From NCBI RefSeq assembly GCF_046119375.1, contig NW_027362767.1:260896001-260960000 (forward strand): a stretch of DNA of 64,000 bases. The letters are read 5' to 3'. Origin of the DNA: Phyllobates terribilis (taxonomy: Eukaryota). A program made the position numbers and the translations under genes. Under the pieces are notes generated by a model. That model worked only from the letters and a program-made list of their open reading frames with translations, did no database searches and had not been told where the DNA came from. Below are positions 26,701-59,551 of the stretch, in pieces; within the stretch, counting starts at the first letter, position 1, and each line of letters begins with the position of its first letter.

Positions 26701-26800
26701 AAGAACTTACCAGTTGGAGAATTTATAATAGCGCGGAGGCGTGCGTGCTCTGAGGAAACTAGTTTTATAAGAGAATGTGCAGTGCTGGGTTTATGGTATA

Positions 26801-36298: not shown

Positions 36299-36309
36299 TG
36301 GACAGCGAT

Positions 36310-38465: not shown

Positions 38466-38712
38466 TTGTAGGGGTTTCTGCTCTCTGGTAGACCTTGGAT
38501 ACACACAGGCACAGGCTGTTTATATAAAAAGAGAAAAAAGTTTACTGTCCTTTATAAACTTTACAGCTCCAAACTGAAAACAGACTTTCTTCAGCACAAA
38601 TGAAGAACAAAACAGTCCTCTCTCTGGGTACGGCAAAGTAAATCAAAACAGTTCCACCAACTTGGTTTTACAGACACTATTACAGTCTCTAGCATAGACT
38701 GTCCAACATTAA

Positions 38713-39587: not shown

Positions 39588-39653
39588 TTAAGGGTCTTTC
39601 TACAACTCCAATACAACACACTCTAACCCAGCTGCCTGCTACTATGCCTGAAA

Positions 39654-40779
39654 GGCCACGGCCCCACTATCAGTATTTGGTCAGTATTCGGTCAGTATAT
39701 TTCTCAAGAGTGGGAGCCAAAACCATGAGTGGGTGATAAATGCAGAATTGGTGACTTGTTTCTGTAAGGCTATGTGCTCACGATGCAGAAATGCTTCATA
39801 TTGTTTCCGCTTCTCCCTGGCAAGAAAAACGCATGCGGATTTTACATGCGTTTTTCCTGCCAGGTAGAAGCGCTGTCAAGCGTTTTTGCATGCGGGTTGT
39901 CAAGTGCTTTTCCAAGCGATTTTAGCATCACTTAGAAAGTGCTTGACAACTTGGTCACACTATATAAATCCATGCAGCCGGCATGGATTTTTATATTGTG
40001 ACCAAGTAATAGTTAAAAAAAAAGAATAAGAATGGTGAAAAATAAAGATTATACTCACCTTCCGATGGCTCCCGGTCTCCTTCTCCGCTCCGTTCGGTCT
40101 CCCACGATGGTGTGAAGGACCTGCGATGACGTCATTGAGTCATGTGACAGGTCACGCGATCGCTGACGTCGGCGGTCGCGTGACCTGTCACATGACTTAA
40201 TGACGTCATGTCAGGTCCTCACACCAAAGCGAGCCGCCCAACTCACCGCACGCATCGCTATGGAGACCGGGGGACATTGGAAGATAAGTATAATCTTTAT
40301 TTTTTACTTTAAATTCTTTTTTTTTACAGTTTCTATGGTACCCGGGTCTGGATGAGAGTCTCCTCTTCTCCAGACCCAGGTACCATCCGCACATTGAATC
40401 GCTTCATATCCGTATGTGTACGTGTAGTGATGCGGATATGAAGCGATTCAATGCAAGTCAATGGCGGCAATTACGCTGCGTGTTCGCAAAATTAATGGAC
40501 ATGCTGCGTATTTTTCCGCAATGATAATCCGCAGCGGAAATTTCCGCAGCATGTGCACAGCACATGTGGATTATCATTGGGGACCATGGGGCATGTATTA
40601 CCAAGCGTTTTTTAAGCGTTTTCGCTGCGGAATTTCCGCAGCAAAAACGCTTGAAAAACGCATAGTGGGCACACAGCCTTATACCTTTTCTCTGATTGTT
40701 CCTCACCTGGTTTTGGCTCCCACTCCTGAGAAAAATACTGACTGAATACTGACCAAATACTGATAGTGGGGCTGTGGCC
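39654..40779. mobile_element. GGCCACGG-family MITE containing a nested family-H MITE
   Basis: Arms match 34702-34915, which serves as the empty-site reference. Confidence 0.75.
39768..40678. mobile_element. MITE family H, copy 2
   Basis: TAA|GGCTATGTGCTCACGATGC ... GTGGGCACACAGCC|TTA. Confidence 0.85.
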
Positions 40780-41060
40780 TAAGACCCTGACTGGAGTATG
40801 GGAGCAACCTTTCCCACTCAGGGTCTTTTGGTTGTTCCTAAATCCCGGACCTAAAATCCAGTCATGTAAAAACCCTCTCAGTAATCTAGTGCTCCTGGTA
40901 CAGACTTTTCATTACCGAGGCGAGTCGCTTCAGTGACACATACCTGCCATCCAGGACCTTGTATGCTGTTTTCATATAAATTATATAAAGAAAATGCCCA
41001 GGTAATAGCAGCACGGTACATGAAGCTATATAACACATTTATCCTGTTTTCTCTCTTTAG

Positions 41061-41162
41061 TTCCTGTCGTACTTGATGATTTACCTGCTTAGTGTGGTGG
41101 GCTCCATATTTTGTGGACATTTGGGGAAGTTGGAGCTGGACGCAGTGTCACTGGCAATTGCG
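41061..41162 (+). CDS. SLC47A: SLC47A/MATE exon 2-equivalent: [34 protein letters not shown]
   Basis: tttag/gtaag, 102 nt. [13 protein letters not shown] matches human MATE1 as recalled. Confidence 0.95.
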
Positions 41163-41324
41163 GTAAGTTGATAACTATTGCAATCTAATATAAATGTGTG
41201 CAATCTATGGGGTCCGGCACTTAGAGCCCCCACCAGTCTTCTGCATAAGGGGAGTCCTGTCCTTTAAAGACAGATACATATGGATCCTATGTATATTCTT
41301 CTACATCTGCATCTCTCTTTACAG

Positions 41325-41393
41325 ATGGTAAATATTACGGGAGTCGCAGTGGGGTCAGGCTTGGCCGGTGCATGCGATACACTAATGTCGCAG
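41325..41393 (+). CDS. SLC47A: SLC47A exon 3: MVNITGVAVGSGLAGACDTLMSQ
   Basis: tacag/gtcag, 69 nt, in frame. Confidence 0.95.
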
Positions 41394-41621
41394 GTCAGTA
41401 AATTTATCCTTGTAATTGTGCATTTAATACAGTTCTGGAAAATCTGTTAGATCCTACTGGAAAGAGTCAGCAAGATGGTTGTCAGGCATGCCCTTAGAGG
41501 CATAGCTGAGCTTCTATAATGCAGGGGGCAGTTATTCTTTTGCTGCCCGGTGACAGCTAACATTTCCCAGAATGCAAATTAGCTCCGTGCAGACACAAAA
41601 CATGCAGGGAGAGTTCACTAA

Positions 41622-41976
41622 GAGTATGTGCACACGATCCTTTTTTGGCAGCGCTTTGAACGCAGCATACTTGTGCTGTGTCCAAAGCGCTGCACGCAGG
41701 TGAATCCGCATGTATTCATTGAACACATGCGGGTTCACCGCAGCCTATACATTACACTCATAGAATTTCTCTTGCGGAGACAAGAAATTAACATGCTGCG
41801 GTCTGTGACACGCCGCATGTCCGTCGGTGAGTCACAGGAGCACGGGAACGCACAGTGGGCATGGGATTTCTTGAAATCCCATCCACTATGCTGTAACATC
41901 TGGCCGCTGCGGATTGCTCGCAGAGCAAGGGCACTGCGTCCAATCCTCAGCGTTTACCTACTGTGTGCATGCACCC
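41622..41976. mobile_element. PIF/Harbinger-type MITE in intron 3
   Basis: TIR GAGTATGTGCACAC versus reverse complement GGGTGCATGCACAC. Direct TAA TSD at 41619-41621 and 41977-41979. Confidence 0.75.
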
Positions 41977-41997
41977 TAAAACAGATTTCTCTTTCAG

Positions 41998-42146
41998 AAT
42001 TATGGTAGCAAGAACCTGAAGATGGTTGGTACCATCCTGCAGAGAGGGATCCTCATCCTACTCCTGTCCTGTTTCCCCTGCTGGGCCCTATTTGTGAATA
42101 CAGAACCAATACTCCTCCTATGCCGGCAGGACCCAGAAGTGTCGAG
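41998..42146 (+). CDS. SLC47A: SLC47A exon 4: NYGSKNLKMVGTILQRGILILLLSCFPCWALFVNTEPILLLCRQDPEVS(R)
   Basis: ttcag/gtgat, 149 nt. Confidence 0.95.
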
Positions 42147-42371
42147 GTGATACATATGTCTGGTGCAGGGCCTGAGGGGGCGATCTGGGTGACTCGAAAC
42201 AAGTTCACCATAGTCCATCACAAGGCTCACTATCTGGGTCACAAAAGGTCTCAGCATTGCATCACACTCAGGGAGGACACTGCAGAATGGAGACCACGGC
42301 CCACAGCCCCGGGGGCATCTGTGTAATGAGACCCGAATGCTATCACTTATATCACGTCTTTTTCCTTATAG

Positions 42372-42414
42372 ATTAACTCAGACTTACGTCTTCATATTCA
42401 TTCCAGCCCTTCCG
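42372..42414 (+). CDS. SLC47A: SLC47A exon 5: LTQTYVFIFIPALP
   Basis: tatag/gtaag, 43 nt. Confidence 0.95.
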
Positions 42415-42511
42415 GTAAGAAAATCAGCGTCTCATACCACCTGCTGAACGTAGACAAGTATGGTGGTCCCAAGAGGGAAGGGGTGCTGAGGACATACCAG
42501 AATCATGACAT

Positions 42512-45500
42512 GGGGGGAACAGGATAATGACACTGACACTCAGGGAACAGGATAATGACACTGACACTCAGGGAACAGGATAATGACACTGACACTCAGG
42601 GAACAGGATAATGACACTGACACTCGGGGTACAGGATAATGGCACTGATACTCAGGGTCAGAATAATGGCACTGACACTCGGGGTACAGGATAATGACAC
42701 TGACACTCGGGGTACAGGATAATGACACTGACACTCGGGGTACAGGATAATGGCACTGACACTCGGGGTACAGGATAATGACACTGATACTTGGGGTACA
42801 GGATAATGGCACTGACACTCGGGGTACAGGATAATGACACTGATACTTGGGGTACAGGATAATGGCACTGACAGTCGGGGTACAGGATAATGACACTGAT
42901 ACTCGGGGTACAGGATAATGGCACTGACACTCAAGGTACAAGATAATGACGCTGACACTCGGGGTACAAGATAAGGACACTGATACTTGGGGTGCAGGAT
43001 AATTACACTGACACTCGCGGTACAGGATAAGGACAATGACACTCGGGGTACAGGATTATGACGCTGACACTTGGGGTACAGGATAAGGACACTGCCACTC
43101 GGTGTACAGGATAAGGACACTTGGGATACAGGATAAGGACACTGACACTCTGGGTACAGGATAAGGACACTCGGGGTACAGGATAAGGACACTGACACTC
43201 GGGTACAGGATAAGGACACTCAGGGTACAGGATAAGGACACTGTCACTCAGGGAACAGGATAATGACACTGTCACTCGGGTACAGGATAAGGACACTCGG
43301 GGTACAGGATAATGACACTGACACTCAGGGTACAGGATAATGACACTGACACTCAGGGAACAGGAAAATGACACTGACACTCGGGGTACAGGATAATCAC
43401 ACTGATACTCGGGGTCAGAATAATGGCACTGACACTCGGGGTACAGGATAATGACACTGATACTTGGGGTACAGGATAATGGCACTGACACTCGGGGTAC
43501 AGGATAATGACACTGATACTTGGGGTACAGGATAATGGCACTGACAGTCGGGGTACAGGATAATGACACTGATACTTGGGGTACAGGATAATGGCACTGA
43601 CAGTCGGGGTACAGGATAATGACACTGATACTTGGAGTACAGTACAAGAGCACTGACACTCGGGATACAAGATAATGACGCTGACACTTGGGGTACAGGA
43701 TAAGGACACTGCCACTCGGTGTACAGGATAAGGACACTTGGGGTACAGGATAAGGACACTGCCACTCGGGGTACAGGATAAGGACACTCAGGTTACAGGA
43801 TAAGGACACTGACACTCGGGTACAGGATAAGGACACTTGGGATACAGGATAAGGACACTGACACTCTGGGTATAGGATAAGGACACTCGGGGTACAGGAT
43901 AAGGACACTGACACTCGGGTACAGGATAAGGACACTCAGGGTACAGGATAAGGACACTGACACGCGGGGTACAGGATAATGACACTGACACTCGGGGTAC
44001 AGGATAATCACACTGATACTCGGGGTCAGAATAATGGCACTGACACTCGGGGTACAGGATAATGACACTGATACTTGGGGTACAGGATAATGGCACTGAC
44101 AGTCGGGGTACAGGATAATGACACTGATACTCGGGGTACAGGATAATGGCACTGACACTCAAGGTACAAGATAATGACGCTGACACTCGGGGTACAAGAT
44201 AAGGACACTGATACTTGGGGTGCAGGATAATTACACTGACACTCGCGGTACAGGATAAGGACAATGACACTCGGGGTACAGGATTATGACGCTGACACTT
44301 GGGGTACAGGATAAGGACACTGCCACTCGGTGTACAGGATAAGGACACTTGGGATACAGGATAAGGACACTGACACTCTGGGTACAGGATAAGGACACTC
44401 GGGGTACAGGATAAGGACACTGACACTCGGGTACAGGATAAGGACACTCAGGGTACAGGATAATGACACTGACACTCAGGGAACAGGATAATGACACTGA
44501 CACTCGGGGTACAGGATAATCACACTGATACTCGGGGTCAGAATAATGGCACTGACACTCGGGGTACAGGATAATGACACTGATACTTGGGGTACAGGAT
44601 AATGGCACTGACACTCGGGGTACAGGATAATGACACTGATACTTGGGGTACAGGATAATGGCACTGACAGTCGGGGTACAGGATAATGACACTGATACTT
44701 GGAGTACAGGATAAGAGCACTGACACTCGGGATACAAGATAATGACGCTGACACTTGGGGTACAGGATAAGGACACTGGCACTCGGTGTACAGGATAAGG
44801 ACACTTGGGGTACAGGATAAGGACACTGCCACTCGGGGTACAGGATAAGGACACTCAGGGTACAGGATAAGGACACTGACACTTGGGTACAGGATAAGGA
44901 CACTCAGGGTACAGGATAAGGACACTGACACTCGGGTACAGGATAAGGACATTCGGGGTACAGGATAAGGACACTGTCACTCGGGTACAGGATAAGGACA
45001 CTGACACTCGGGTACAGGATAAGGACACTCGGGGTACAGGATAAGGACACTGTCACTCGGGTACGGGATAAGGACACTCGGGGTACAGGATAAGGACACT
45101 GTCACTTGGGTACAGGATAAGGACACTCGGGGTACAGGATAAGGACACTGTCACTTGGGTACAGGATAAGGACACTTGGGGTACAGGATAAGGACACTGT
45201 CACTTGGGTACAGGATAAGGACACTCGGGGTACAGGATAAGGACACTGTCACTTGGGTACAGGATAAGGACACTTGGGGTACAGGATGAGGACACTGTCA
45301 CTCGGGGTACAGGATAAGGACACTGTCACTCGGGTACAGGATAAGGACACTCGGGGTACAGGATAAGGACACTGACACTCGGGTACAGGATAAGGACACT
45401 GACACTCGGGGTACAGGATAAGGACACTCAGGGTACAGGATAAGGACACTGACACTCGGGTACAGGATAAGGACACTCGGGGTACAGAATAAGGACACTG

Positions 45501-45637
45501 TCACTCGGAGTACAGGATAAGGACACTTGGGGTACAGGACAAAGACAATGACACTCGGGGTACAGGATAAGGACACTTGGGGTACAGGACAAGGACAATG
45601 ACACTCGGGGTACAAGATAAGGACACTTGGGGTACAG
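42512..45637. repeat. 3.1-kb minisatellite in intron 5 (28-bp GGGGTACAGGATAATGACACTGACACTC and about 20-bp variants) with higher-order duplication
   Basis: Visible array. Matching ORF blocks recur at an offset of 1228 bp. Confidence 0.95.
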
Positions 45638-45735
45638 TTTTGTCTATGTCACTACATCTCTTATGTTCTTACTTTGGTCTGCTCCTGATTTCCCATTTCT
45701 ATGTGACACATAATGGCTTCTCTATTTTCTCTCAG

Positions 45736-45780
45736 GCCTCGTTTATATACCAGCTTCAGGCTAAATACTTACAGAACCAG
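45736..45780 (+). CDS. SLC47A: SLC47A exon 6: ASFIYQLQAKYLQNQ
   Basis: ctcag/gtact, 45 nt. Confidence 0.95.
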
Positions 45781-45872
45781 GTACTGTGAACGCTGCGGTC
45801 CTGCGGTACCAGACACGGGACGTCCTCTCATGGTGCAGATCAGGGGAGGTTTCTCATTACTCTCTGCAGTTT

Positions 45873-45957
45873 CCCATAGCAACCAATCAGAACTCTTATT
45901 TTATTTTCAAAATGACCTGTGAAAAATAAGAGCTGCAGTCTGATTGGTTGTTATGGG
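45873..45957. mobile_element. Small palindromic MITE-like element (CCCATAGCAACCAATCAG...CTGATTGGTTGTTATGGG)
   Basis: Near-perfect 18-bp inverted arms. Recalled as a common anuran repeat. Confidence 0.6.
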
Positions 45958-46024
45958 CACCTGCTGCCCTTTCGCACTAGTGTCGTTGAATATTCCGGGG
46001 GGTTTGCTCTTTTATCTTGACCTA

Positions 46025-48088
46025 TATACTCAGTCTCCTACTGACTGTATATTGTATACTCAGTCCTAACATTAGCGCCACCAATAGATGGTATACTTAG
46101 ACCGGACATTGGTGCCCCTTTACGGACCATATACGCTGCCCTGATGTTAGCGCCTCCTAATGGCTGTATTCTCAGTCCTGACGTTAGTGCACCTTTAGAC
46201 CCTATACCATGTACTCAGTTCTCACGTTGGCGCCCTTACCCAGTCCCAGTCCTGATGTTACCTCCCCCTACAGACCATATACTCAGTCCTGACATTAGCG
46301 CCCCCTACAGACTGTATACCATATACTCAGTCGTGACGTTGGCGCGCCCTTCAGACTGTACACCATATACTCAGTCGTGACGTTGGCGCCCCCTACAGAC
46401 TGTATACCATATACTCAGTCGTGAAGTTGACAGTCTTACAGACAGTATACCCAGTCCTGATATTAGCGCCCCTGCAGATAGTATACCATATACTTAGTCC
46501 AGACATTAATACCCCTACATACTATATACTCAGTCCAGACATTAGAGCCCCCTACAAACAATATACTCAGTCCTGATGTTAGAGCCTCTACAGACCGTAA
46601 GCCATATACTCATTCCTGACATTAGCACCGTCAGACCGTATAGTCAGTCCTTATGTTACCGCTAACTAATGACCGTAAACCCAGTCCTGACGTTAGCCAG
46701 GGTTGTGGAGTCGGAGTCGTGGAGTCAGAGTTGAAGCCCATTTTGGTGGAGTCTGTATAAAATGGACCGACTCCAACTTCTAAAATATATAATAAGTTGG
46801 GTACAGTAGTTCAATGCAGTCTGTGGGGAATATTTTTTCATAAGAACTTGGGAAAGTTATGAAATGTCCTATAAATGTCTGTCCTATTCCTGATCTAAGG
46901 GTCTAGACTTTTAGCTGAGATGAATCTGTGTACGGTAAATTTATCACTTACACATGAGCCGTGTATGAGGGAGTCGTAGTCGGAGTCGGTGTCATGGAAA
47001 TTGAGGAGTCGGAGGTTTGGCTTACCGACTACAGCCCTGACGTTAGCACCCCCTAGAGACCATATCCTCAGTCCACCGCTGCAGACTGTATATCATATGT
47101 TCAGCCTTGATGTTGGCGCCCTTATAGACTGTATACTCAGTCCTGATGTTAGTGCTTCCTAATAACTGTATACCCAGTCCTGACGTTAGCAACCCCTACT
47201 GACTGTATACCCAGCCCTGACATTAGTGCCCGGTACTGACCATATACCCAGTCATGATGTTAGAACCCCCTACTGACCGTATACTCAGTCTTGAAGTTAG
47301 CATCCCCTACTAACCATATACCTAGTCCTGTCGCTATCACCCCCTACTGACCATATACCCAGTCCTGACGTTAGTGCCGCTACCGACTGTATACCCAGCC
47401 CTGGCATTAATGCCCCTTCTGACCGTATACCCAATCCTGATGTTAGCACTTCCTACTGACCGTATACTCTGTCCTAACGTTAGCATCCCCTACTGACCAT
47501 ATACTCTGTCCTGACGTTAGCATCCCCTACTGACCGTATACTCAGTCCTGACGTTAGCACCCCCTACTGACTGTATACCGAGTCCTGATGTTAGCACCCC
47601 CTACTGACCGTATACCCAGTCCTGACGTTAGCGCCCCTACTGACCGTATACCCAGTCCTGATGTTAGCATTCCCTACTGACCGTATACTCTATCCTGATG
47701 ATAGCATCCCCTACTGACCGTATACTCTATCCTGATGATAGCATCCCCTACTGACCGTATACTCTATCCTGATGTTAGCATCCCCTACTCAGTGTATACT
47801 CAGTCATGACGTTAGCACCCCCTACTGACTGTATACCGAGTCCTGATGTTAGCACCCCCTACTGACCGTATACCCGGTCCTGACGTTAGCGCCCCTACTG
47901 ACCTTATACCCAGTCCTGACGTTAGTGCCCCTCTACTGACTGTATACCCAGTCCTGACGTTAGCACCCCCTACAAACCGTAAACTCAGTCCTGACGTTAG
48001 CACCCCCTACTGACCGTATACTCAGTCCTGACGTTAGTGCCCCCTACTGACTGTATACCCAGTCCTGACATTAGTGCCCCCTACTGAC
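46025..48088. repeat. About 36-37-bp minisatellite in intron 6 (CCCCTACTGACCGTATACTCAGTCCTGACGTTAGCA)
   Basis: Visible array, more homogeneous toward the right end. Confidence 0.92.
46698..47039. mobile_element. hAT MITE inserted in the intron-6 minisatellite
   Basis: CAGGGTTGTGGAGTCGG ... CCGACTACAGCCCTG, with a perfect 8-bp TSD ACGTTAGC. Confidence 0.9.
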
Positions 48089-48124
48089 AGACTACGTCCT
48101 TATCTTTATCTTGTCTTTCTACAG

Positions 48125-48222
48125 GGAATTATTTTTCCTCAAGTCTTAACTGGATTCATTGCGAACCTGTTCAATGCAATCATCAACTACATCTTCCTGT
48201 ACATCCTGGGTCTGGGGGTCAT
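48125..48222 (+). CDS. SLC47A: SLC47A exon 7: GIIFPQVLTGFIANLFNAIINYIFLYILGLGV(M)
   Basis: tacag/gtacg, 98 nt. Confidence 0.95.
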
Positions 48223-48558
48223 GTACGTACTGCTGGAATATTACTATGGGGGGATTGTGGATGGCTGCACCCTAAAACTGCCCGACAAATGTAAAATTGT
48301 ACTCTTCTGAGTGACTACCAAAAAATGAGTTGGTAACAGGATTCTCCAGGACAGTACGATTATGGCAATACCAAACTTGTATACAGTAGTTTTTATTATA
48401 GTGGTTAAAAAAGTCAGAACTTGAAAAAAACATCATGGAGCTAGAAGGATATTTATTGGAAATTTTAGGAATAAATGGCAATTAAAGGGGCTGTCCATTT
48501 TTGAAGAACTCCTGTCCTGGCATCACGTGTAGGAAAGTTTTTCTTTTTTCTCCCCTAG

Positions 48559-48656
48559 GGGCTCGGCCTTGGCAAATACGTTATCTCAGTACATCCAGGC
48601 GGTCCTGTTATTCCTCTACATTGTGTGGAGGAGGCTCCACGTGGACACATGGGGAG
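48559..48656 (+). CDS. SLC47A: SLC47A exon 8: GSALANTLSQYIQAVLLFLYIVWRRLHVDTWG(G)
   Basis: cctag/gtacc, 98 nt. Confidence 0.95.
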
Positions 48657-49404
48657 GTACCGGCCAGCAGAGCTCACGTCCTGAATCGTATATTATTATA
48701 ATACTTGTCCTGCTCATTTTTTGTACTTTCAAATTCATTCTATTGTCTTCTGTTATCAGCCAATCCAGGCTAACTACAGTGTTCCTCAATAGGATGGCCT
48801 AAGTGGAAGATGTTTCATGGGATCCCTAAGTCCCAAAGGTTTTTTTTAATACTCTTTGGGCCCAATTCCTCATTTGTGCTATTTTTGTCCCTTTTTTCAT
48901 GTTGATATTTTTTTGCACCAAATTCTTGAATTGATGAATTTTGTGCAAATTAAAAAAAATGCAATTTATTTTTGTCTTTGAACAGTTTTAGACTTTTTAG
49001 CTCAAAAAGTTTCATCTTCTGCTAAAAATTGTAAAATTTGTGCTGAAATGTCTATCCCACATAAAATTACTCCAGGAGGGACTGGAGTACATTTGAGCCA
49101 AACTTTACAACTTCCTAAGGTCTCTATTGATGAATTAGTTTAATATATTTGGAAACTCCAAACCTTGGCCGCAGTGGTGAATGTGAAAAAACAAACAGGC
49201 GAACATATAAAATAGACAAAAAAAAAAAAGCGCAAAGCAAAAGAAGACAGCGCAAATGAAAAACATGTGAAAAACATGAAAAAAATATACAAAAAAAGGC
49301 TCAAATGCAATAATTACATTGAGCTCTTTGTGTTTAAATGTTTACCAGTTGCAAGATCTCTGGTTGCTGGCAGTGAATGGAGACGCTCTGCCTTACATCA
49401 TGAG

Positions 49405-49711
49405 TAGTGATGAGCGAGTATGTTCTCTTAACCCTTTTGGCGAGCATGCTCGGGCGAACACCGAGTATCTTCAGCTCAGCATGCTTGGGTGTTATGTTTC
49501 AGTCTCTCTGTGTGCGACTGTTTGACAGCTTTAATACATGTGAGGAATGTCTGTTTCTTAGGCATTCCTCACATGTATTAAAGTTGTCAAACAGTCGCAA
49601 ATCATGCACACAGAGAGACTGAAACATAACACCCGAGCATGCTGAAGAAACTTGGTGTTTGTCCGAGCATGCTCGCCAAAAGGGTTAACAGAACATACTC
49701 GCTCATCACTA
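49405..49711. mobile_element. Palindromic hAT MITE (307 bp) sharing its TIR with the hAT at 7947
   Basis: TAGTGATGAGCGAG at both ends. Perfect 8-bp TSD ATCATGAG. Confidence 0.92.
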
Positions 49712-49729
49712 ATCATGAGTTAATGAAAA

Positions 49730-50073
49730 GGCTCTGCTCACATGTGCGTTATGTACATATTTTGGTTCCTACAATGGACACCATAATGGGATCAGTCTTC
49801 TTTGTTTCGTATTTTTGGCCGCATCTGCGATCTTCTTTATCAATGTGAACAAACCCAAAACTGACAAGACTCAAAACATCTCACAGTTGAGAGTTTGTTA
49901 CAACTGCATCAGTCTAAACAGTCCTCTGTGAGTTAAACATGTCACTCTCCTGTCCTGACAGTTTGTTGCAGTGTATCAGTGCAGCGTGACAGATTACGAT
50001 TGTTTCCATTTATTGACATCAGACAGAAACAAGAAATTAATATGAAATTAGTTTGATGCATAGTGAATGGGGC
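49730..50073. mobile_element. Probable old Harbinger-type MITE ending 20 nt before exon 9
   Basis: GGCTCTGCTCAC ... GTGAATGGGGC|TTA. The TIR matches 7/11, and all mismatches are transitions. Confidence 0.4.
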
Positions 50074-50093
50074 TTAACTGCGGCTTTTCCCAG

Positions 50094-50207
50094 GGTGGTC
50101 CGTTGCCTGCTTTGAGGACTGGGGCCCCTTCATCCGTCTCGCCATTCCCAGCATGCTGATGGTCTGTGCAGAATGGTGGGCATTTGAGATTGGAATCATA
50201 TTGTCCG
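50094..50207 (+). CDS. SLC47A: SLC47A exon 9: WSVACFEDWGPFIRLAIPSMLMVCAEWWAFEIGIILS(G)
   Basis: cccag/gtaag, 114 nt. The EWWAFE motif (E273/E278 equivalents) is intact. Confidence 0.97.
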
Positions 50208-50679
50208 GTAAGTTAAAGCCTCTCTGTAGTCTGGCCGGATGCCATACTGCATCCTGATTCTTTTTTTTTTCTCCTTGGGATAAGCGGAGTCAGGCAGCCA
50301 CTTATCCTTATGTGCACTATACACCACTGCATGCTGTGTACAGCTGAAACCAGATGTTTCCATACACTATATAAAAAGACACATCTGCATGTTTTTCTCA
50401 ATATCTGACATGAAATCAGAATAAACCTTTCCTGTTTTAGGTCAGTTAGGATTACCATCATTTTTAATATTTGCCAAATGCCAGAATAATGAGAGAGAGA
50501 GAATGTTTTAAGGCATTTTTATTACTTACTGCAAAGTCTAAAGTTTACATTCACTAAGACTTCTATGCCTTTAAACAATTCTGGACGGCCTATATGATGA
50601 TGTCATGTGTTTGGAAGCTTCTGACTTCTGTTTTTTTGGCAACATCTGAGTTAATTAGAGACACACCTGTGGATGTATT

Positions 50680-51699
50680 CTTCTGATGGCCCCCGGTCTC
50701 CTGTACGATGCGTCCGGTGTCTTCGGCGGCTCGCAGTGGTGTAAAAGGACCTTCCATGACGTCATTCAGTGACAGGTCACACGACCGCAACGTCGGCACA
50801 GCACATGCGGATTATCATAGGGGACCATGGGGCACGTATTACCAAGCATTTTTTAAGCATTTTCGATGGGGAAATTCCGCGTCAAAAAGCTTGAAAAACG
50901 CATAGTGGGCACGCAGCCTTAGGCGGATTGTACATGCGTTTTTCCTGCCAGGGACATGTGGATGTGAAGCGTTATTCACATGCGTTTCCGCATGCGGGTT
51001 GACAAGCGCTTTCCAGGTGATTTTAGCATCACTAGGAAAGTGCTTGACAACTAGGTCACACTATATAAATCCATACAACCAGCATATATAGTGTGACCCG
51101 AGAGAGTGGTTAAAAATAAAAAATAAACCTATACTTACCTTCTGATGACCCGCGCTGTCTTGCTGCGCTCCTGTGCTGGCTGCCGGCAGATCGTGGTACG
51201 CTGTACTGAAGGACCTGCCGTCACATGACTGTGACATCACTGCAGGTCCTTCAGTCCTGCGCGATCTATCGGCAAGCACAGGGAAGGAGTCCGGGGGCCG
51301 TCGGAAGGTGAATATAATCTTTATTTTTTATTTTATTCTTTTTTTACAGCTTTTAATGGTACCTGGGTGTGGAGGAGAGTCTCCTCTCCTCTACACCCGG
51401 GTACCATCCGCACATTAGAACGCACCAATTACACAAGTACAGATTCAGTCTTGCGGAATTGGCGCGTTCTAATGCAAGTCAATGGCGGCGAAAACGCAGC
51501 ACTTCCGCAAAATTAATGGACATGCTGCGGATTTTTGAGCGCAGCATAAACGCTGCATAAAAATACGCAGCATGGCCATTGAAAGTGCGGAATTGCATTG
51601 GAGACCATGGGGGAAGGTTTACCAAGCGTTTCCCAAGCGTTTACGCTGCGGAAATTAAGCAGCATAAATGCTTGAAAAACGCATCGTGGGCACATAGCC
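50680..51699. mobile_element. Two one-ended family-H MITE pieces in tandem (ends at 50918 and 51699)
   Basis: Both end GTGGGCAC(G/A)(C/T)AGCC|TTA. The left TIRs are absent. Confidence 0.75.
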
Positions 51700-51887
51700 T
51701 TATTGTTATTCTGATTTTCTGAGTGGATAACCCAAAGCAAACAACTACAGTAGGTTTACTTGCTGTAGTAACTATCCCTTTGTTGGGAGCTGATAGCAAA
51801 CAATAGTTTATCATGGATTGCAAGGGAACTTAATGTCAATAGTTTTCAAAGCACCGAGTAATGGGTAAATCCTGCTGACGGCGTTAA

Positions 51888-52502
51888 GCCCCCATCTCAC
51901 ATAGCGAGATCGCTAGCGAGATCGCTGCTGTGTCACGGTTTTGGTGACGCAACAGCGACCTCACCAGCGATGTCGCTATGTGTGACACTTTGCAGCGATC
52001 AGGCCCCTGCTGTGAGATCGCTGCAAAGTGTCCTGGACCATTTTTTGGTCGTTGCTCTCCCGCTGGTCAGCACACATCGCTGTGTGTGACCAGCGGGAGC
52101 AGCGATCAGGCTGGTAACTATGGTAAACATCGGGTTACTAGGGGCACACACGCACCTAGTAACCCGCTGTTTATCATGGTTACGAGCCTGCTAAAGTGAG
52201 CGGTAATCTCCCGCTCACCGTAGTAGAGTGGTAACCATGATAAACAGCGGGTTACTAGGTGCGCGTGTGCCCCTAGTAACCCGATGTTTATCATGGTTAC
52301 CAGCCTGCTCCTGCTTTAGCAGGCTGGTAACCGGAGCAGGACATCGTGGAAAGATTCTTTCCACGATGTCGCTGCTCCCCTGATCGTTGGTGAGCCTGCC
52401 TGTTTGACAGCTCACCAGCGACCACATAGCGACGCAGCAATGATCCCTGACAGGTCGTATCGTTGTCGGGATCGCTGCAGCGTCGCTAAGTGTGACGGGG
52501 CC
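51888..52502. mobile_element. Second copy of the 6233 MITE, opposite orientation
   Basis: Reverse-complement match along its length. Flanks TTAA/TTTA. Confidence 0.85.
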
Positions 52503-52843
52503 TTTAGCTGCAGCTGTACTCACTTGCTTCCAAGGCGTGCATCCGACGGTAGATTTTAGATAGACGTAGCATGATGTGCTTACTTTCTTGATCCACATGG
52601 AGCGTTGGCGTCTGGTAGAAGGTAGTGGGTAATTATCACCCTCTGTAGTGCGGAGTAGAATCCGTGTATCCTGTGCAGCCTGCAGCACGGGCTACACGTG
52701 TGCACATGAAAAGGAGAAAGTAGGTATCACAGAGCCACAGGCTCTCCGGCGGGCAGCGTCCCTGATTACCAACCTCTGTTGAACGTGTGCTGGGATGCCG
52801 CGTGACGTCACTGGGTACAAGGAGTTTGAAAGCCAAAAAGCAG

Positions 52844-52888
52844 ACCAACCAGTTTCGGGGAATCCTCAATCCCCCTTCATCAGGGTAC
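52844..52888 (-). ncRNA. Minimal type-I hammerhead ribozyme, probably from a Penelope terminal repeat
   Basis: The minus strand reads ACC-CUGAUGA-A-GGGGGA(UUGAGGA)UUCCCC-GAAAC-UG-GUU-GGU. Confidence 0.7.
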
Positions 52889-53034
52889 CCTGGCGGATTT
52901 TCTATCTATTTTAACAATTTCAAGATACCTGAAGGTGCCTCGTTCATCTCTACAAACAATTAAACGCAAGTGCAAACAAGCCATCATACCGCTCAGTAAG
53001 GAGATGGGTTCTGTGTCCCAGAGATGAGTGTGCT

Positions 53035-53843
53035 TTGGTCCGACATGTGCATATCAACCCAAGGACAAAAGCAAAAGACCTTGTGAAGATGATGGCGGAA
53101 GCTGGTAAGATTGTGTCAATAACCACAGTGAAACAAGTACTGTATCAACATAAGCTGAAAGGCCACTCTGCCAGAAAGAAGCCACTACTCCAAAAGAAAC
53201 ATAAAAAAGCCAGATTAATGTTTGCAAATGCACACAAGAACAAAGACCTTCATTTTTGGAGACATGTCCAGTGGTCTGATGAAACTAAAATGAAATTTTC
53301 TGGGCATAATGACCATCGTTACGTTTGGAGGAAAAAGGGAGAAGCTTGGAAGCCTAAGAATACCATCCAAACTGTGAAACATGGGGGTGGCAGCATCATG
53401 TTGTGGGGTTGTTTTGCTGCAGGAGGGACTGGTGCACTTCACAAAATAGATGGCATTATGAGAAAAGAAGATCATGTGGCAATACTGAAGCAACATCTCA
53501 AGACATCAGCCAGGAAGTTAAAGCTTAGGCGGAAATGGGTCTTCCAAATGGACAATGACCCAAAGCATACTGCCAAAATTGTAAGAAAGTGGCTTAAGGA
53601 TAACAAAGTCAATGTTTTGGAGTGGCCATCACAGAGCACAGATCTCAATCCTATTGAAAATTTATGGGCAAAGCTGAAAAGGCAGGTGTGAGCAAGGCGA
53701 TGTACAAACCTGGATCAGTTACTCCAGTTTTGTCAGGAGGAATGGGCCCAAATTCCGACTAACTATTGTGAGAAGCTTGTGGAAGGATATCCCAAATGTT
53801 TCACCCAAGTCATTCAGTTTAAGGGCAATGGTACCAAATACTA
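53035..53843 (+). pseudogene. SB-like DD34E transposase; catalytic domain open 53035-53691, then a stop
   Basis: WSDETK, TVKHGGGSIMLWGCFAAGGTGALHKIDGIMRKE, FQMDNDPKHT, LNPIENLW. Confidence 0.92.
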
Positions 53844-54127
53844 ATGAAATGTATGTAAACTTTTGACTTTGCAGTAAGTAATAAAAATGCCTTAAACATT
53901 CTCTCTCTCTCTCATTATTCTGCCATTTGGCAAATATTAAAAATGATGGTAATCCTAACTGACCTAAAACGGGAAAGGTTTATTCTGATTTCATGTCAGA
54001 TATTGAGAAAAACATGCAGAAGTGTCTTTTTATACAGTGTATGTAAACCTCTGGTTTCAACTGTATGCCAATCACAGAAGGACCATTATAATACATTGCG
54101 AGCTATAATAATTCTCCATCCTCTCAG

Positions 54128-54195
54128 GGGTCCTCAGCATGGAAGATCTCGGTGCTCAAACGATTATCTATCAGATGGCCGTGATTGCCTTCATG
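54128..54195 (+). CDS. SLC47A: SLC47A exon 10: VLSMEDLGAQTIIYQMAVIAFM
   Basis: ctcag/gtaag, 68 nt. Confidence 0.95.
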
Positions 54196-54381
54196 GTAAG
54201 GACCCCCATTCTTTTGTCTCGTCTTACCCCCTTCTGTGCCGACCATATATAATCCCCTGCCACGATTCATGAGAAGCAGCACCTAACTAAGCAGCGCTGC
54301 AGGGACCTAAGGGACCACAAGGAGCAGAGTCCACTGGGGTGGGGACAGGTCTTATAATGCGGCACTGTTTCCGCTCTACAG

Positions 54382-54490
54382 GTGCCAATAGGGTTCAGTA
54401 TCGCGGCCAGCGTCCAGGTGGGTCATGCCGTCGGGGCAGGAGACATTGTACAAGCCAAGAAATCAATGGTTGTCGCCATATCAATGGCAG
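54382..54490 (+). CDS. SLC47A: SLC47A exon 11: VPIGFSIAASVQVGHAVGAGDIVQAKKSMVVAISMA
   Basis: tacag/gtaat, 109 nt. Confidence 0.95.
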
Positions 54491-54718
54491 GTAATGAAGA
54501 AACTGCTCCACAAACATCACATAAAAGGACACTGCAGCCTTCTGAAACACTCTGCTGCTGTGGTTTCCGCCACATATCAGTAGATGCCATCCCACTTTTC
54601 CACAATCATTGCTATTATGACCTTGTCCTTACTATTGTTATCACAAATGCCGACTCTTCTGAAATACTCTGTGCTGCATTGGAACCAGCTATATGATTTA
54701 GCCTTTTTTTTGCTACAG

Positions 54719-54794
54719 AATCCTGTGCCCTGGTAACTTCCATTCTGCTATTAAGCCTGAAGAATGTGATCGGCTACATTTTCACTTCAGATGA
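54719..54794 (+). CDS. SLC47A: SLC47A exon 12: (E)SCALVTSILLLSLKNVIGYIFTSD(E)
   Basis: tacag/gtaag, 76 nt. Confidence 0.95.
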
Positions 54795-55002
54795 GTAAGA
54801 GGGGGCACTGTTCCTTTAAATGTTTCGTCACAGGATGTGTAATATCCAGCAGACATACTGCCACTGTTTATGCTTGGCTATGTCTGGAGACTGCTCTGGT
54901 TCTTTGGTGTTTGCTGTCTGTAAATCGGCCAAAACTGCAATTGTCTGTAGAAGTAAAAGGGAGATTCTGCCTACACTGACCACCTGTGACCGTCCCCCCG
55001 CT

Positions 55003-57025
55003 GGATGTAGCTCAGGATCAGTAATGTAATGTATGTACACAGTGACTGCACCAGCAGAATAGTGAGTGCAGCTCTGGAGTATAATACAGGAGGTAACTCA
55101 GGATCAGTACAAGATAAGTAATGTAATGTATGTACACAGTGACTCCACCAGCAGAATAGTGAGTGCAGCTCTGGAGTATAATACAGGATGTAACTCAGGA
55201 TCAGTACAGGATCAGTAATGTAATGTATGTACACAGTGACTGCACCAGCAGAATAGTGAGTGCAGCTCTGGAGTATAATACAGGAGGTAACTCAGGATCA
55301 GTACAAGATAAGTAATGTAATGTATGTACACAGTGACTCCACCAGCAGAATAGTGAGTGCTGCTCTGGAGTATAATACAGGATGTAACTCAGGATCAGTA
55401 CAGGATAAGTAATGTAATGTATGTACACAGTGACTGCACCAGCAGAATAGTGAGTGCAGCTCTGGGGTATAATACAGGATGTAACTCAGGATCAGTAATG
55501 TAATGTATGTACACAGTGACTGCACCAGCAGAATAGTGAGTGCAGCTCTGGAGTATAACACAGGATGTAACTCAGGATCAGTACAGGATAAGTAATGTAA
55601 TGTATGTACACAGTGACTCCACCAGCAGAATAGTGAGTGCTGCTCTGGAGTATAATACAGGATGTAACTCAGGATCAGTACAGGATAAGTAATGTAATGT
55701 ATGTACACAGTGACTGCACCAGCAGAATAGTGAGTGCAGCACTGGAGTTTAATACAGGAGGTAACTCAGGATCAGTACAGGATAAGTAATGTAATGTATG
55801 TACACAGTGACTGCACCAGCAGAATAGTGAGTGCAGCTCTGGAGTATAATACAGGAGGTAACTCAGGATCAGTACAAGATAAGTAATGTAATGTATGTAC
55901 ACAGTGACTCCACCAGCAGAATAGTGAGTGCTGCTCTGGAGTATAATACAGGATGTAACTCAGGATCAGTACAGGATAAGTAATGTAATGTATGTACACA
56001 GTGACTGCACCAGCAGAATAGTGAGTGCAGCTCTGGGGTATAATACAGGATGTAACTCAGGATCAGTACAGGATAAGTAATGTAATGTATGTACACAGTG
56101 ACTGCACCAGCAGAATAGTGAGTGCAGCTCTGGAGTATAACACAGGATGTAACTCAGGATCAGTACAGGATAAGTAATGTAATGTATGTACACAGTGACT
56201 CCACCAGCAGAATAGTGAGTGCTGCTCTGGAGTATAATACAGGATGTAACTCAGGATCAGTACAGGATAAGTAATGTAATGTATGTACACAGTGACTGCA
56301 CCAGCAGAATAGTGAGTGCAGCTCTGGAGTATAATACAGGATGTAACTCAGGATCAGTACAGGATAAGTAATGTAATGTATGTACACAGTGACTGCACCA
56401 GCATAATAGTGAGTGCAGCTCTGGAGTATAATACAGGAGGTAACTCAGGATCAGTACAGGATCAGTAATGTAATGTATGTACACAGTGACTCTAATGTAT
56501 GTCCACCAGCAGAATAGTGAGTGCAGCTCTGGGGTATAATGCAGGATGTAACTCAGGATCAGTACAGGATAAGTAATGTAATGTATGTACACAGTGACTG
56601 CACCAGCAGAATAGTGAGTGCAGCTCTGGGGTATAATGCAGGATGTAACTCAGGATCAGTACAGGATAAGTAATGTAATGTATGTACACAGTGACTGCAC
56701 CAGCAGAATAGTGAGTGCAGCTCTGGAGTATAACACAGGATGTAACTCAGGATCAGTACAGGATAAGTAATGTAATGTATGTACACAGTGACTCCACCAG
56801 CAGAATAGTGAGTGCAGCTCTAGAGTATAATACAGGAGGTAACTCAGGATCAGTACAGGATAAGTAATGTAATGTATGTACACAGTGACTGCTTCAGCAG
56901 AATAGTGAGTGCAGCTCTGGAGTATAATACAAGATGTAACTCAGGATCAGTACAGGATAAGTAATGTAATGTATGTACACAGTGACTGCACCAGCAGAAT
57001 AGTGAGTGCAGCTCTGGAGTATAAT
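55003..57025. repeat. 97-bp satellite, about 21 copies, in intron 12
   Basis: Near-identical ORFs are spaced exactly 97 bp apart (55772, 55869, 55966, 56063, 56160, 56257). Confidence 0.97.
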
Positions 57026-57156
57026 AGAGCATATTTTTATATGTAAAATGGAGACACCCTTTACAGAGAGAACCAAGGTGCGATGTATGTACTGACTTTG
57101 TGAAGTGCAATTATAGTGGGTAGTCATATGTGATAATAACAATCTCTGTCCTATAG

Positions 57157-57226
57157 GGGTATAGTGAAGCTGGTCAGCTACGTTCTTCCTGTATACGCCG
57201 GGAGTCATCTTTGTGATGCATGTGTG
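57157..57226 (+). CDS. SLC47A: SLC47A exon 13: GIVKLVSYVLPVYAGSHLCDACV
   Basis: tatag/gtgag, 70 nt. Confidence 0.93.
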
Positions 57227-57523
57227 GTGAGATTTTTTTTTTCTTTGAAAATGAAGTTCCCATGACATTTGCTGTCCGGGCCCTGGCCATCTTTAACAAT
57301 GTTGTAGGAGCAGTGTAGATGCAGTGATGCCAGAGATATAGATATATATATCTATATCTCTCGACCCAAATAATGCCCTTATGACGCTTGTTACAATTAA
57401 GAACAGGAAGTTTTTTCATAGAGTCAGAGTAAACGCAAAGACATTTTAGCCAGTTGTTCATCTCCGGGGCCATATCATTGGAATTTGATGGTGGTTCACT
57501 CTCTATTCTGTCCTTTCTCGTAG

Positions 57524-57656
57524 GCCACGTGTAGTGGCGTTCTGCGTGGCACTGGAAAGCAGAAAATTGGGGCCATTTTTCATGCTGTCGGCTATTACAT
57601 CATTGGTCTTCCGGTGGGAATCTCCCTAATGTTTGCAGCCAAAATAGGAATACTAG
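57524..57656 (+). CDS. SLC47A: SLC47A exon 14: ATCSGVLRGTGKQKIGAIFHAVGYYIIGLPVGISLMFAAKIGIL(G)
   Basis: cgtag/gtaat, 133 nt. Confidence 0.97.
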
Positions 57657-58148
57657 GTAATCGCTTCTTAAAATCGAATTATCCCATGTATACATCATGT
57701 GTCGTCCATTCCCTACCAAAGATGCGTTTAAGAGTCCTGCTTAGTGCCTTGACCAAACTGTAGCTTTGCTACCAAACATGAAACCCTAAAACTTAAGTGT
57801 AAGAGTGTGACTTTCCTATGAGCTCCCACAATCCACCACACTCTGGGATGTATTAGGATGCAGATCTGGATGCGAGTGGAGGATAAGCATTTTGATTAGA
57901 ACTGTAAAAGATTAAAAGCAGGGTTCCCCTTTCAACTAAAAATCAGCAACATTTTTGATGCAGCTCTTGATGGGAATAGAGCATCAATATTTTATGTAAA
58001 TTGTAATGATAAAACAGTAAGTGTGGAGTTGCCCTTTAAGCACATCACATAGAATATCAATATTTTACAGTGTGAGGAATGTAGAAAACACAAGCTGAAG
58101 TATCAGTATGGCTGCCAATGATATCACCGCTGCCTTGTTTGGTCCTAG

Positions 58149-58243
58149 GGTTCTGGCTCGGGCTCCTGCTCTGCGCTTTCCTGCAGATATTCACTTTCTT
58201 AGTCTTCGTATTCAAGATTGACTGGGAACAGGCGTCACAGGAG
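58149..58243 (+). CDS. SLC47A: SLC47A exon 15: FWLGLLLCAFLQIFTFLVFVFKIDWEQASQE
   Basis: cctag/gtcag, 95 nt. Confidence 0.93.
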
Positions 58244-58320
58244 GTCAGTGTCCCCGAGTTGTAGGGCTGAGCAGCGGTCATGATGTGTGCTGTGACTTCA
58301 CCATCTTATTCCTATCTTAG

Positions 58321-58399
58321 GCACAGGCCAGGGTCAGTCAGAGGGTGACACGAGACTTGCAGAACAATGCAGCCATTTATCAGGGTGCGGCCATGAGCG
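58321..58399 (+). CDS. SLC47A: SLC47A exon 16: AQARVSQRVTRDLQNNAAIYQGAAMS(E)
   Basis: cttag/gtatg, 79 nt. Phase 0 in and phase 1 out fits both neighbouring exons. The sequence is poorly conserved apart from the initial AQ. Confidence 0.8.
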
Positions 58400-58736
58400 G
58401 TATGTAAACCTCTCTTCACCCAGTCGTCCTTTTCAGTCAAGTTGCTAAAATTTCCATTGAGCCTGAGATGCATCTGGTCCTGGGAAAGCTGGGTGCCAAG
58501 CAATGTGTTCACTGTTCCTGGTCATAGGGGTGTTGTTATGCAGGGGGGTACCATCATTGATCCCTGCCATACTGCATAGGGGGCTGGTGCCGAGTCTGGG
58601 GAGGCAGGGAACAACTTGCCAGTAATGGGAGGCCATATTCCTGGTCATATCTGGATGTAAGTGGAGGATAGAAGATGTTGCCCCTTGAGCCCTCGCTCTT
58701 GACCATCGCACTATTGACAATTTCCTAATTTTACAG

Positions 58737-58939
58737 AAATCACAGAAGAGCCCAGGACTTTGAGCTCCACGGACACAGAAGGTGACCAGAGGCCGGACCC
58801 CTTGCAGGTTGACTCCCCACACCCTGAAGGAACCTTTAGACCTTTATCCAGAAAGCAGCTGTTCCTGTGCAGATCTTTAGTTCTCCTCGCCGCGCTCACC
58901 TTACTAATGATTGGGATACTAATAAGGCTATGTGTTTGA
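58737..58939 (+). CDS. SLC47A: SLC47A last exon: ITEEPRTLSSTDTEGDQRPDPLQVDSPHPEGTFRPLSRKQLFLCRSLVLLAALTLLMIGILIRLCV*
   Basis: ttacag acceptor. LSRKQL plus a terminal hydrophobic helix (TM13) as in vertebrate MATE1. The 16 exons total 1551 nt (517 codons including stop). Confidence 0.92.
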
Positions 58940-59127
58940 GCGCAGCTCCAGGGAACTAAATGCAGCCATCGATTAAATCCATGCTGTCCAGGGACATCTT
59001 TCTGCCTCACGGATGATACTGGCAGGGTTTGGACCCATCTGGGCAAAACCGCAGCAGGCAGTAAAGCAGGACTGTGCCAGGAAGGCATCATCACATTTCA
59101 TTTACAGAGAGCTTTATTTTTGGTGAA

Positions 59128-59133
59128 AATAAA
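59128..59133 (+). promoter_or_regulatory. Candidate polyadenylation signal of the SLC47A gene
   Basis: First AATAAA noticed after the stop (about 190 nt downstream). Not verified by transcript data. Confidence 0.45.
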
Positions 59134-59551
59134 TTATACGCCAAGTCTCCAACATGGAGATGAAGCATGGAGACGTTCCCTGCATCACTGTATTACCGTA
59201 TATGCCTTGTGTTCATTGTCAAGATCTTACATTATACCCTAGGGCTGAAACCTGTTCACCTGATCCTTCTCCGATGGCTGTTACAGTTGGATCCAGTTTA
59301 CAAATTGTTTTTTCGTGCACTGATACATTGTAGCAAACTATCAGAAAAAATGAGATTTGTGCTGTTAATGTGATTTTCTGGACTGGATACATACAATATT
59401 AAAATATATATATATTTTTTTCCAAATACGTTTGCTCTGATTTTAGTCTCTGGATGTAAACATGGGAGTTTCTGTTCACCGACAGCAGGCAAAGAGCTGG
59501 GAAATAATGAGGTTTTCAAACAAAGACTTCTACATAAAAAAAAATGTCTAA

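What the first reader, a model, noticed from the sequence alone, without database searches (positions are those of the whole stretch)
41061..58939. Intact but divergent MATE transporter with changes at conserved C-lobe positions
Seen: 16 exons splice in frame with GT-AG sites and no stop, although the introns are full of decayed repeats, which suggests purifying selection. Against human MATE1 (sequence and numbering recalled), N82, E273 and E278 are kept. Five positions differ: E300 is Q (IIYQMAV), R319 is Q and N322 is H (SVQVGHAVGAG versus SVRVGNALGAG), E389 is D (SHLCDAC), and N412 is H (GAIFHAVGYY versus GAIVNTIGYY). Established: E273, E278, E300 and E389 are the transmembrane glutamates implicated in H+/organic-cation exchange and substrate affinity of MATE1. 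Inference: this paralogue may have altered substrate range or coupling. If the species is a toxin-handling frog, it is a candidate alkaloid transporter, since alkaloids are organic cations.
Basis: partly seen in the sequence, partly recalled or inferred. Interest (0 to 1): 0.7.

Follow-up and report, generated by a model that had tools for sequence, protein, structure and literature searches.

The report
Ordinary frog MATE1 cation exporter gene
This is an intact, spliced poison-frog copy of the MATE1 gene, which likely pumps out organic cations as in other vertebrates; four of its five supposedly odd residues are shared by most frogs, so they are not a poison-frog adaptation.

Summary
In detail: 16 AG/GT exons give a stop-free 516-aa frame, and the five differences from human MATE1 are real. 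These are exons 2-17; exon 1 lies 14 kb upstream of the window. Spliced contigs occur in runs of two studies. The product equals residues 59-574 of an annotated Phyllobates terribilis MATE1-like protein.

The interpretation mostly fails. The gene is the frog orthologue of MATE1 (97/97 support; AU test rejects origin from the frog MATE2-like cluster). Among 31 frog orthologues, Q300 is in 30, H322 in 26, D389 in 30 and H412 in 28, non-toxic frogs included; D389 is the majority vertebrate state. Only Q319 is restricted (2 of 31). The acidic pair E273/D389 and W274 are kept, so H+/cation antiport is likely.

Weak leads remain: a Phyllobates-only cluster in helix 1 (Q49Y; p about 0.01 uncorrected), I/V303 in all four Dendrobatinae, and faster evolution across dendrobatoids, including a genus assumed undefended. 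No convergence with Mantella or Pseudophryne was found. Transport and tissue were not tested.

The parts
41061..41162 (+). exon 2 (helix 1; Y49 at 41070-41072, Y53 at 41082-41084, G59 at 41100-41102, human numbering)
   Evidence: no other letters in contigs of 4 of 4 runs
41325..41393 (+). exon 3 (N82 at 41331-41333)
   Evidence: joint skipping 162 nt in 4 of 4 runs
41998..42146 (+). exon 4
   Evidence: joint skipping 604 nt in 4 of 4 runs
42372..42414 (+). exon 5
   Evidence: joint skipping 225 nt in 4 of 4 runs
45736..45780 (+). exon 6
48125..48222 (+). exon 7
48559..48656 (+). exon 8
50094..50207 (+). exon 9 (E273 at 50171-50173, W274, F277, E278)
54128..54195 (+). exon 10 (Y299, Q300 at 54172-54174, V303, F306)
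54382..54490 (+). exon 11 (Q319 at 54415-54417, H322 at 54424-54426)
54719..54794 (+). exon 12
   Evidence: loose ends before 57157 in 4 of 4 runs read as the end of this exon
57157..57226 (+). exon 13 (D389 at 57215-57217)
   Evidence: covered without other letters, joint skipping 297 nt in 4 of 4 runs
57524..57656 (+). exon 14 (H412 at 57581-57583, Y416)
   Evidence: joint skipping 492 nt in 4 of 4 runs
58149..58243 (+). exon 15 (Q449)
   Evidence: joint skipping 77 nt in 4 of 4 runs
58321..58399 (+). exon 16
   Evidence: 337-nt joint in X1 and X6, the same joint with two other letters in X2, none listed for X5
58737..58939 (+). exon 17 coding part to the TGA stop (loop and predicted 13th helix)
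58940..59394 (+). 3' untranslated region, approximate end
   Evidence: contigs of X1 and X2 run on to 59390 and 59394; those of X5 and X6 leave at 59338
1..41060 (+). 3' part of the 55,321-nt intron 1; exon 1 lies outside the window at G000:C7:260881566-260881739

Best explanation
This intact, spliced 17-exon gene is the frog orthologue of SLC47A1/MATE1 and likely works as a proton-coupled exporter of organic cations, with Q300, H322, D389 and H412 being the usual frog states rather than poison-frog changes. Shown: gene structure, splicing, orthology, distribution of residues, retention of E273, W274, Y299 and an acid at 389. Predicted: the MATE fold with a 13th helix. Inferred from human and plant MATE work: a cation binds in the C-lobe pocket between E273 and D389; protonation of that pair collapses the pocket and releases the substrate; W274 shields the pair. 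Also inferred: F277, F306 and H412 would retune substrate preference in frogs generally, and Q319/H322 near the end of helix 8 lie outside the solved pocket and would affect packing or gating more than recognition.
For: Open frame and splice sites. Spliced contigs in 6 of 6 runs laid, from two studies; in X1 one 2281-nt contig has 1348 nt between the starts of exons 2 and 17, equal to the sum of exons 2-16. Pfam MatE at 177.7 bits against a cut-off of 24.9. Best fold match is human MATE1 9r1f, E 1.1e-35, TM 0.88 by target length. In the 25-row tree, amphibian and mammalian MATE1 group at 97/97; holding frog MATE1 with the frog MATE2-like copies costs 145.6 log-likelihood units, p-AU 1.7e-9. 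All 31 frog rows form one clade. Counts among them: Q300 30, H322 26, D389 30, H412 28, F277 29, F306 26; D389 is in 31 of 35 other vertebrate rows. Plant MATEs carry Asp at the 389 position (PMC12559748), and a Camelina-type plant MATE aligns Thr at 300. The solved human pocket is E273, E389, W274, Y277, Y299, Y306, N82 and I303; E300, R319, N322 and N412 are not named in that paper's main text.
Against: No transport assay of any frog MATE1 was found, so activity is inferred. Human N412 mutation strongly reduces TEA transport (PMC5696359) and human Y277F keeps only about half of MPP uptake (PMC12559748), so frog MATE1 may differ from the human protein. R319 is kept in 199 of 215 proteins covering the site and Q49 in 222 of 230; this gene lacks both. 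Dendrobatoid MATE1 evolves 1.5-3 times faster than other hyloids.
Confidence: 0.75

Rival explanations
1. All frog MATE1 proteins shifted function at the base of Anura (Q300, F306, H322, H412) to a different substrate class or weaker proton coupling, and this gene simply inherits that shift.
For: Q300, F306 and H322 are near-fixed in frog MATE1 (30, 26 and 26 of 31) and rare or absent in the 35 other rows (2, 0 and 0). N412 and Y306 are functionally tested human residues. A MATE2-like copy on C2 keeps E300, R319, N322 and N412 and could cover the ancestral role.
Against: E273 is kept in the frog rows shown, an acid at 389 in 31 of 31, and W274 likewise; these are the residues whose loss abolishes transport in human MATE1. 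No functional data exist either way in what I read.
Confidence: 0.12
2. In alkaloid-sequestering dendrobatids MATE1 was remodelled to handle dietary alkaloids differently, by the helix-1 cluster (Y49, Y53, G59), I/V303 and Q319, either exporting them into storage tissue or excreting them less.
For: Y49 is in 1 of 27 frog rows covering the site and read in 4 of 4 runs. Q49 and F53 contact ligands in a docking study of human MATE1 (PMC11423340). Five of 17 Phyllobates-branch changes fall in residues 49-59, p 0.007-0.011 uncorrected. Pocket residue 303 is I or V in 4 of 4 Dendrobatinae and N, T or S in 8 of 8 other hyloid rows. The gene's rate excess over Bufo is 33:13, against 23:14 for one MATE2-like control.
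Against: Q319 is absent from both Ranitomeya. The window size was chosen after seeing the cluster, 20 branches were tested, and Rhinophrynus scores similarly. I/V303 is also the X. tropicalis and common mammalian MATE1 state. Phyllobates is not faster than other dendrobatoids, and Anomaloglossus, of a group assumed undefended (PMC11677230), is as fast. The gene-versus-control difference is significant with 1 of 3 outgroups (Fisher 0.48, 0.015, 0.13). No site is shared by all six sequestering rows and absent from the other 25. No paper links SLC47 to dendrobatids.
Confidence: 0.07
3. The gene is under relaxed constraint in dendrobatoids because the MATE2-like cluster is redundant with it, and the private changes are drift.
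For: The rate excess is spread over all dendrobatoid branches. At least seven MATE2-like exon-4 matches lie on C2. Substitution rate varies with metabolic rate in Dendrobatidae (stated in PMC3551647).
Against: The frame is intact and spliced, and Phyllobates has 5 changes at highly conserved sites in 425, inside the frog range of 0-9 when the poorly aligned Pyxicephalus row (30) is set aside.
Confidence: 0.06

Closest known systems
[quoted passage not shown]
   Same: Residues 59-574 are identical to the window product; exon 1 found upstream in G000.
   Different: None; probably the annotation of this very locus, so not independent evidence.
Frog MATE1 orthologues, e.g. Xenopus tropicalis MATE1 (P0137), Bufo bufo (P0014), Dendrobates tinctorius (P0123)
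   Same: One clade; Q300, H322, D389 and H412 shared; 85% identity to Dendrobates, 80% to Bufo, 61% to X. tropicalis.
   Different: Q319 only with Dendrobates; Y49, L55, G59 and V324 only in Phyllobates among frog rows.
Human MATE1 / SLC47A1 (PDB 9r10, 9r1f)
   Same: Orthologous clade, same fold, N82, E273, W274, E278, Y299, Y416 and Q449 kept.
   Different: Q49Y, F53Y, Y277F, E300Q, I303V, Y306F, R319Q, N322H, E389D and N412H; not next to the MATE2-like genes in this genome (C7 against C2).
Frog MATE2-like cluster on G000:C2 and mammalian MATE2
   Same: Same family; D389 and F277 shared.
   Different: Separate clade; the one C2 copy examined keeps E300, R319, N322 and N412.

Membership tests
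MATE family (Pfam MatE) | Two MatE repeats above the curated cut-off | tested here: met
   PF01554, 177.7 bits against 24.9, two stretches
MATE family (Pfam MatE) | Two-lobed 12-helix MATE fold | tested here: met
   Predicted model (pLDDT 76.2, pTM 0.75) matches human MATE1 at E 1.1e-35, TM 0.88; a model, not a solved structure
Eukaryotic MATE subfamily | C-lobe acidic pair (human E273/E389; plant E265/D383) and W274 | tested here: met
   E273, W274, D389; definition from PMC12559748
Vertebrate SLC47A | Extra C-terminal 13th helix after a long loop | tested here: met
   Model helix 546-573 after a low-confidence loop 490-541; matches human 525-566
SLC47A1/MATE1 orthology group | Groups with mammalian MATE1, apart from MATE2 | tested here: met
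   97/97 in the careful 25-row tree; AU test against a frog-only clade p 1.7e-9; only one fish row as outgroup, on a long branch
SLC47A1/MATE1 orthology group | Conserved synteny, next to MATE2 | tested here: inconclusive
SLC47A1/MATE1 orthology group | H+/organic-cation antiport activity | not testable with these tools
   Needs an uptake assay
SLC47A1/MATE1 orthology group | Apical kidney and liver expression | not testable with these tools
   Runs show spliced contigs but give no tissue or level
Poison-frog-specific alkaloid transporter (proposed) | Signature residues confined to alkaloid-sequestering frogs | tested here: not met
   Q-x-H-D-H in 25 of 31 frog rows; no site shared by all six sequestering rows and absent from the other 25

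The most novel reading that the evidence does not exclude
Dendrobatine MATE1 was retuned for dietary alkaloids: a hydrophobic residue at pocket position 303 arose in Dendrobatinae, and Phyllobates rebuilt the cavity face of helix 1 (Y49, Y53, G59), changing how alkaloids such as batrachotoxin are excreted or moved to storage. That would be the first membrane transporter tied to poison-frog sequestration.
Probability: 0.07. Interest if true: 0.72.

Novelty: already known. Interest (0 to 1): 0.2.

Why it matters
As found, it matters little: an annotated MATE1 orthologue whose differences from human are mostly old frog states. Two side points have some value. The frog-wide Q300/F306/H322/H412 state is a natural variant of a drug-transporter pocket that I did not find described. 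And the membrane transporters behind poison-frog alkaloid handling are, to my knowledge, still open; Q49Y and I/V303 give a cheap, specific test, though with low odds.

Tried and rejected
Pseudogene or chance frame: rejected. Frog-specific duplicate of the MATE2-like cluster: rejected by AU test. E389D as a special change: rejected, D is the majority state (139 of 198 proteins covering the site). Phyllobates-specific acceleration: not found (Tajima p 0.30-0.75 against other dendrobatoids). Convergence with Mantella or Pseudophryne: one site (S106, Pseudophryne, also the chimpanzee state) and none shared by all. Exon 1 inside the window: not found. First splice attempt had off-by-one boundaries, corrected. 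The 66-row careful tree did not finish; the quick tree was used, with two Ranitomeya imitator isoform rows dropped. The search for shorter proteins gave no further dendrobatid orthologue above 78% identity among the 120 listed, so Oophaga, Epipedobates, Ameerega, Allobates and other Phyllobates are unsampled. The run search listed no holder on record as RNA; the splice joints stand on their own. dN/dS was not run, as no orthologous DNA was available. The structure model gave no coordinates, so residue distances were not measured. The primary paper on E278 and E300 was not found; their role is recalled only. The Atlas look-up failed. Earlier findings: nothing shown.
Full report
1. Observation. 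I spliced the region by coordinates. Sixteen exons between 41061 and 58939 all have AG acceptors and the 15 introns GT donors; 1551 nt translate to 516 aa and a terminal stop, against 29 and 13 stops in the other frames. A search of solved structures gives human MATE1 (9r10) as best match, E 8e-177, gap-free over human 30-437, so human number = window residue + 45. Exon 1 is not in the window but at G000:C7:260881566-260881739, followed by a 55,321-nt intron. The window product equals residues 59-574 of P0121, annotated as Phyllobates terribilis MATE1-like X1. That record lies on a contig of the same length as G000:C7, so it is probably this locus and not independent support.

2. Expression. 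Eight runs from two studies hold about half of the words of 57100-59500; none is on record as RNA. I laid six of them. On 57100-59500, contigs skip exactly the predicted GT-AG introns of 297, 492 and 77 nt in 4 of 4 runs, and the 337-nt intron in X1 and X6 (X2 with two other letters; none listed for X5). On 41000-42450 they skip 162, 604 and 225 nt in 4 of 4 runs, and exon 2 has no other letters. One X1 contig has 1348 nt between the starts of exons 2 and 17, the sum of exons 2-16. Tissue and level are unknown.

3. What it is. Three protein searches and one cluster look-up returned 332 proteins. From these I hand-picked 68 rows, mostly one per gene and species, and dropped two Ranitomeya imitator isoforms, leaving 66. 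In the quick tree all 31 frog rows related to this gene form one clade (SH-aLRT 100) that broadly follows frog relationships as I recall them. In a careful 25-row tree these frogs group with salamanders and caecilians (100/99) and with mammalian MATE1 (97/97), apart from MATE2, the bird and reptile genes, a second frog group and one fish; holding both frog groups together is rejected, p-AU 1.7e-9. The fish outgroup is a single long branch. In this genome exon 14 has one match on C7 and six on C2; one C2 copy examined keeps E300, R319, N322 and N412. Pfam MatE scores 177.7 bits, and the model best matches human MATE1.

4. The five residues. Among the 31 frog rows (29 named species, 2 unnamed): Q300 in 30, H322 in 26, D389 in 30, H412 in 28 and Q319 in 2 (Phyllobates and Dendrobates; R 26, L 2, H 1). 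Q-x-H-D-H occurs in 25 of 31. D389 is in 31 of the 35 other rows, so the human Glu is the minority state; H412 is also in three salamanders and one caecilian. Q319 is absent from both Ranitomeya, and the site has changed in other lineages too (Pseudophryne, Mixophyes, Pyxicephalus, two marsupials, a shark).

5. Mechanism. The human cryo-EM study (PMC12559748; I read parts 1-4 of 8, not the supplements) places the pocket in the C-lobe, lined by E273, E389, W274, Y277, Y299 and Y306, with N82 and I303 contacting ligands. Mutating E273, E389 or W274 abolishes MPP uptake; Y277F keeps about half; Y306F lowers the cimetidine IC50; plant MATEs have Asp at 389. E300, E278, R319, N322, N412 and Q49 do not occur in its main text. 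PMC5696359 (passages) reports that mutating N412 strongly reduces TEA transport. The role of E278 and E300 is recalled only; the primary paper was not found. This protein keeps E273, W274, Y299, N82 and an acid at 389, so I infer H+/organic-cation antiport. F277 (29 of 31 frog rows), F306 (26 of 31) and H412 would retune specificity in frogs generally. Residues 319 and 322 fall near the end of the model helix 302-339 in P0121 numbering, outside the named pocket; that they act on packing or gating is my inference.

6. Leads for a poison-frog role. (a) Y49 occurs in 1 of 27 frog rows covering the site; over all proteins the site is Q in 222 of 230, with Y in this gene's two isoforms and one catfish fragment that I did not check. 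Q49 and F53 contact ligands in a docking study (PMC11423340, passages). Five of 17 Phyllobates-branch changes lie in 49-59, p 0.007 (uniform) and 0.011 (weighted); but the 11-residue window was chosen after the fact, 20 branches were tested, and Rhinophrynus gives 0.010 and 0.038. (b) Position 303 is I or V in 4 of 4 Dendrobatinae and N, T or S in 8 of 8 other hyloid rows, but also I in X. tropicalis and chimpanzee. (c) Dendrobatoid MATE1 is faster than other hyloids: 17 of 20 Tajima tests give p under 0.05 (not independent tests), yet Anomaloglossus is as fast and Phyllobates does not differ from other dendrobatoids. Anomaloglossus belongs to a group mostly assumed to lack alkaloid defences (PMC11677230, one passage). 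One MATE2-like control shows no clear excess (23:14, 13:10, 14:17, 16:13); the contrast with MATE1 is significant for 1 of 3 outgroups. Rate variation within Dendrobatidae is noted in PMC3551647 (passages). (d) No site is shared by all six rows that I classed from recall as sequestering and absent from the other 25. Against degeneration or special remodelling, Phyllobates has 5 changes at highly conserved sites in 425, inside the frog range.

7. Literature. No held paper has both 'slc47' and 'dendrobat'. In the listings (20 of 122 shown; 20 of 40 shown), no listed paper mentions MATE or SLC47A1. A 2026 preprint on sequestration genes (10.64898/2026.07.13.737953, word search of the main text) names other solute carriers but not SLC47; its supplements were not seen and may list it. 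The zebrafish MATE paper (PMC4928094, passages) includes X. tropicalis in its tree; the passages seen give no residue analysis. Subscription papers were not searched.

8. Verdict. The gene is real, intact and spliced. It is the annotated frog MATE1 orthologue, and four of the five flagged residues are general frog or vertebrate states. Novelty: already known. Interest 0.2. The alkaloid-adaptation reading is not excluded but rests on other residues than those flagged; probability about 0.07.

Noticed in passing
window 59338 to 62377: Contigs of runs X5 and X6 leave the 3' untranslated region at 59338 and continue with letters that match 62377 onward; the junction is not GT-AG, while X1 and X2 run on to about 59390. 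Likely a 3-kb deletion allele that changes the 3' end.
   Followed up: partly
window 58397-58398: Run X2 reads two other letters at the end of exon 16, which would give Thr for Ser in the loop; likely a polymorphism.
   Followed up: no
G000:C2:428.7-431.0 Mb and 443.7 Mb: At least seven MATE2-like gene copies by exon-4 matches. Two exon-14 matches (L005, L007) have Phe at the N412 position. Other frogs also show several copies.
   Followed up: partly
G000:C7 against G000:C2: Frog MATE1 sits on another contig than the MATE2-like cluster. Longest-contig figures differ in 8 of 8 frog pairs compared by eye and agree in 4 of 4 mammal pairs, suggesting an old separation in frogs; these figures are per cluster and may mix species.
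   Followed up: partly
G000:C8125 (L019:3879-7297); also C6507, C7522, C3633: Intron-poor MATE genes on small contigs (32-44 kb for the three fetched). The C8125 one is closer to plant DTX14 (E 2e-44) than to human MATE1 (E 4e-30) and lies beside a LINE-like fragment; likely plant contamination of the assembly.
   Followed up: partly
window 1-41060 (intron 1): Dense with mobile-element remains judged by eye from open frames: a 353-codon Tc1-like frame at 27197-28255, piggyBac-like at 21661-22446, hAT-like at 9225-12361, and a broken LTR element at about 28900-33950. Labels are recalled, not tested.
   Followed up: no
window 42514-45627, 47127-48088, 55013-57026, 62732-63924: Long tandem arrays with periods 28, 37, 97 and 35 nt in introns 5, 6, 12 and downstream.
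   Followed up: no
proteins P0142, P0129, P0138, P0011: Other amphibian MATE1 oddities: the caecilian Geotrypetes has Ala at 273 and 300 and Glu at 389 and 412; Ranitomeya imitator has Glu at 389; Pseudophryne and Mixophyes share L319, Q322 and N412.
   Followed up: no
tree: Bird, turtle and lizard proteins sampled, some named MATE1, group with mammalian MATE2; no sauropsid row fell in the MATE1 clade among the six included.
   Followed up: no
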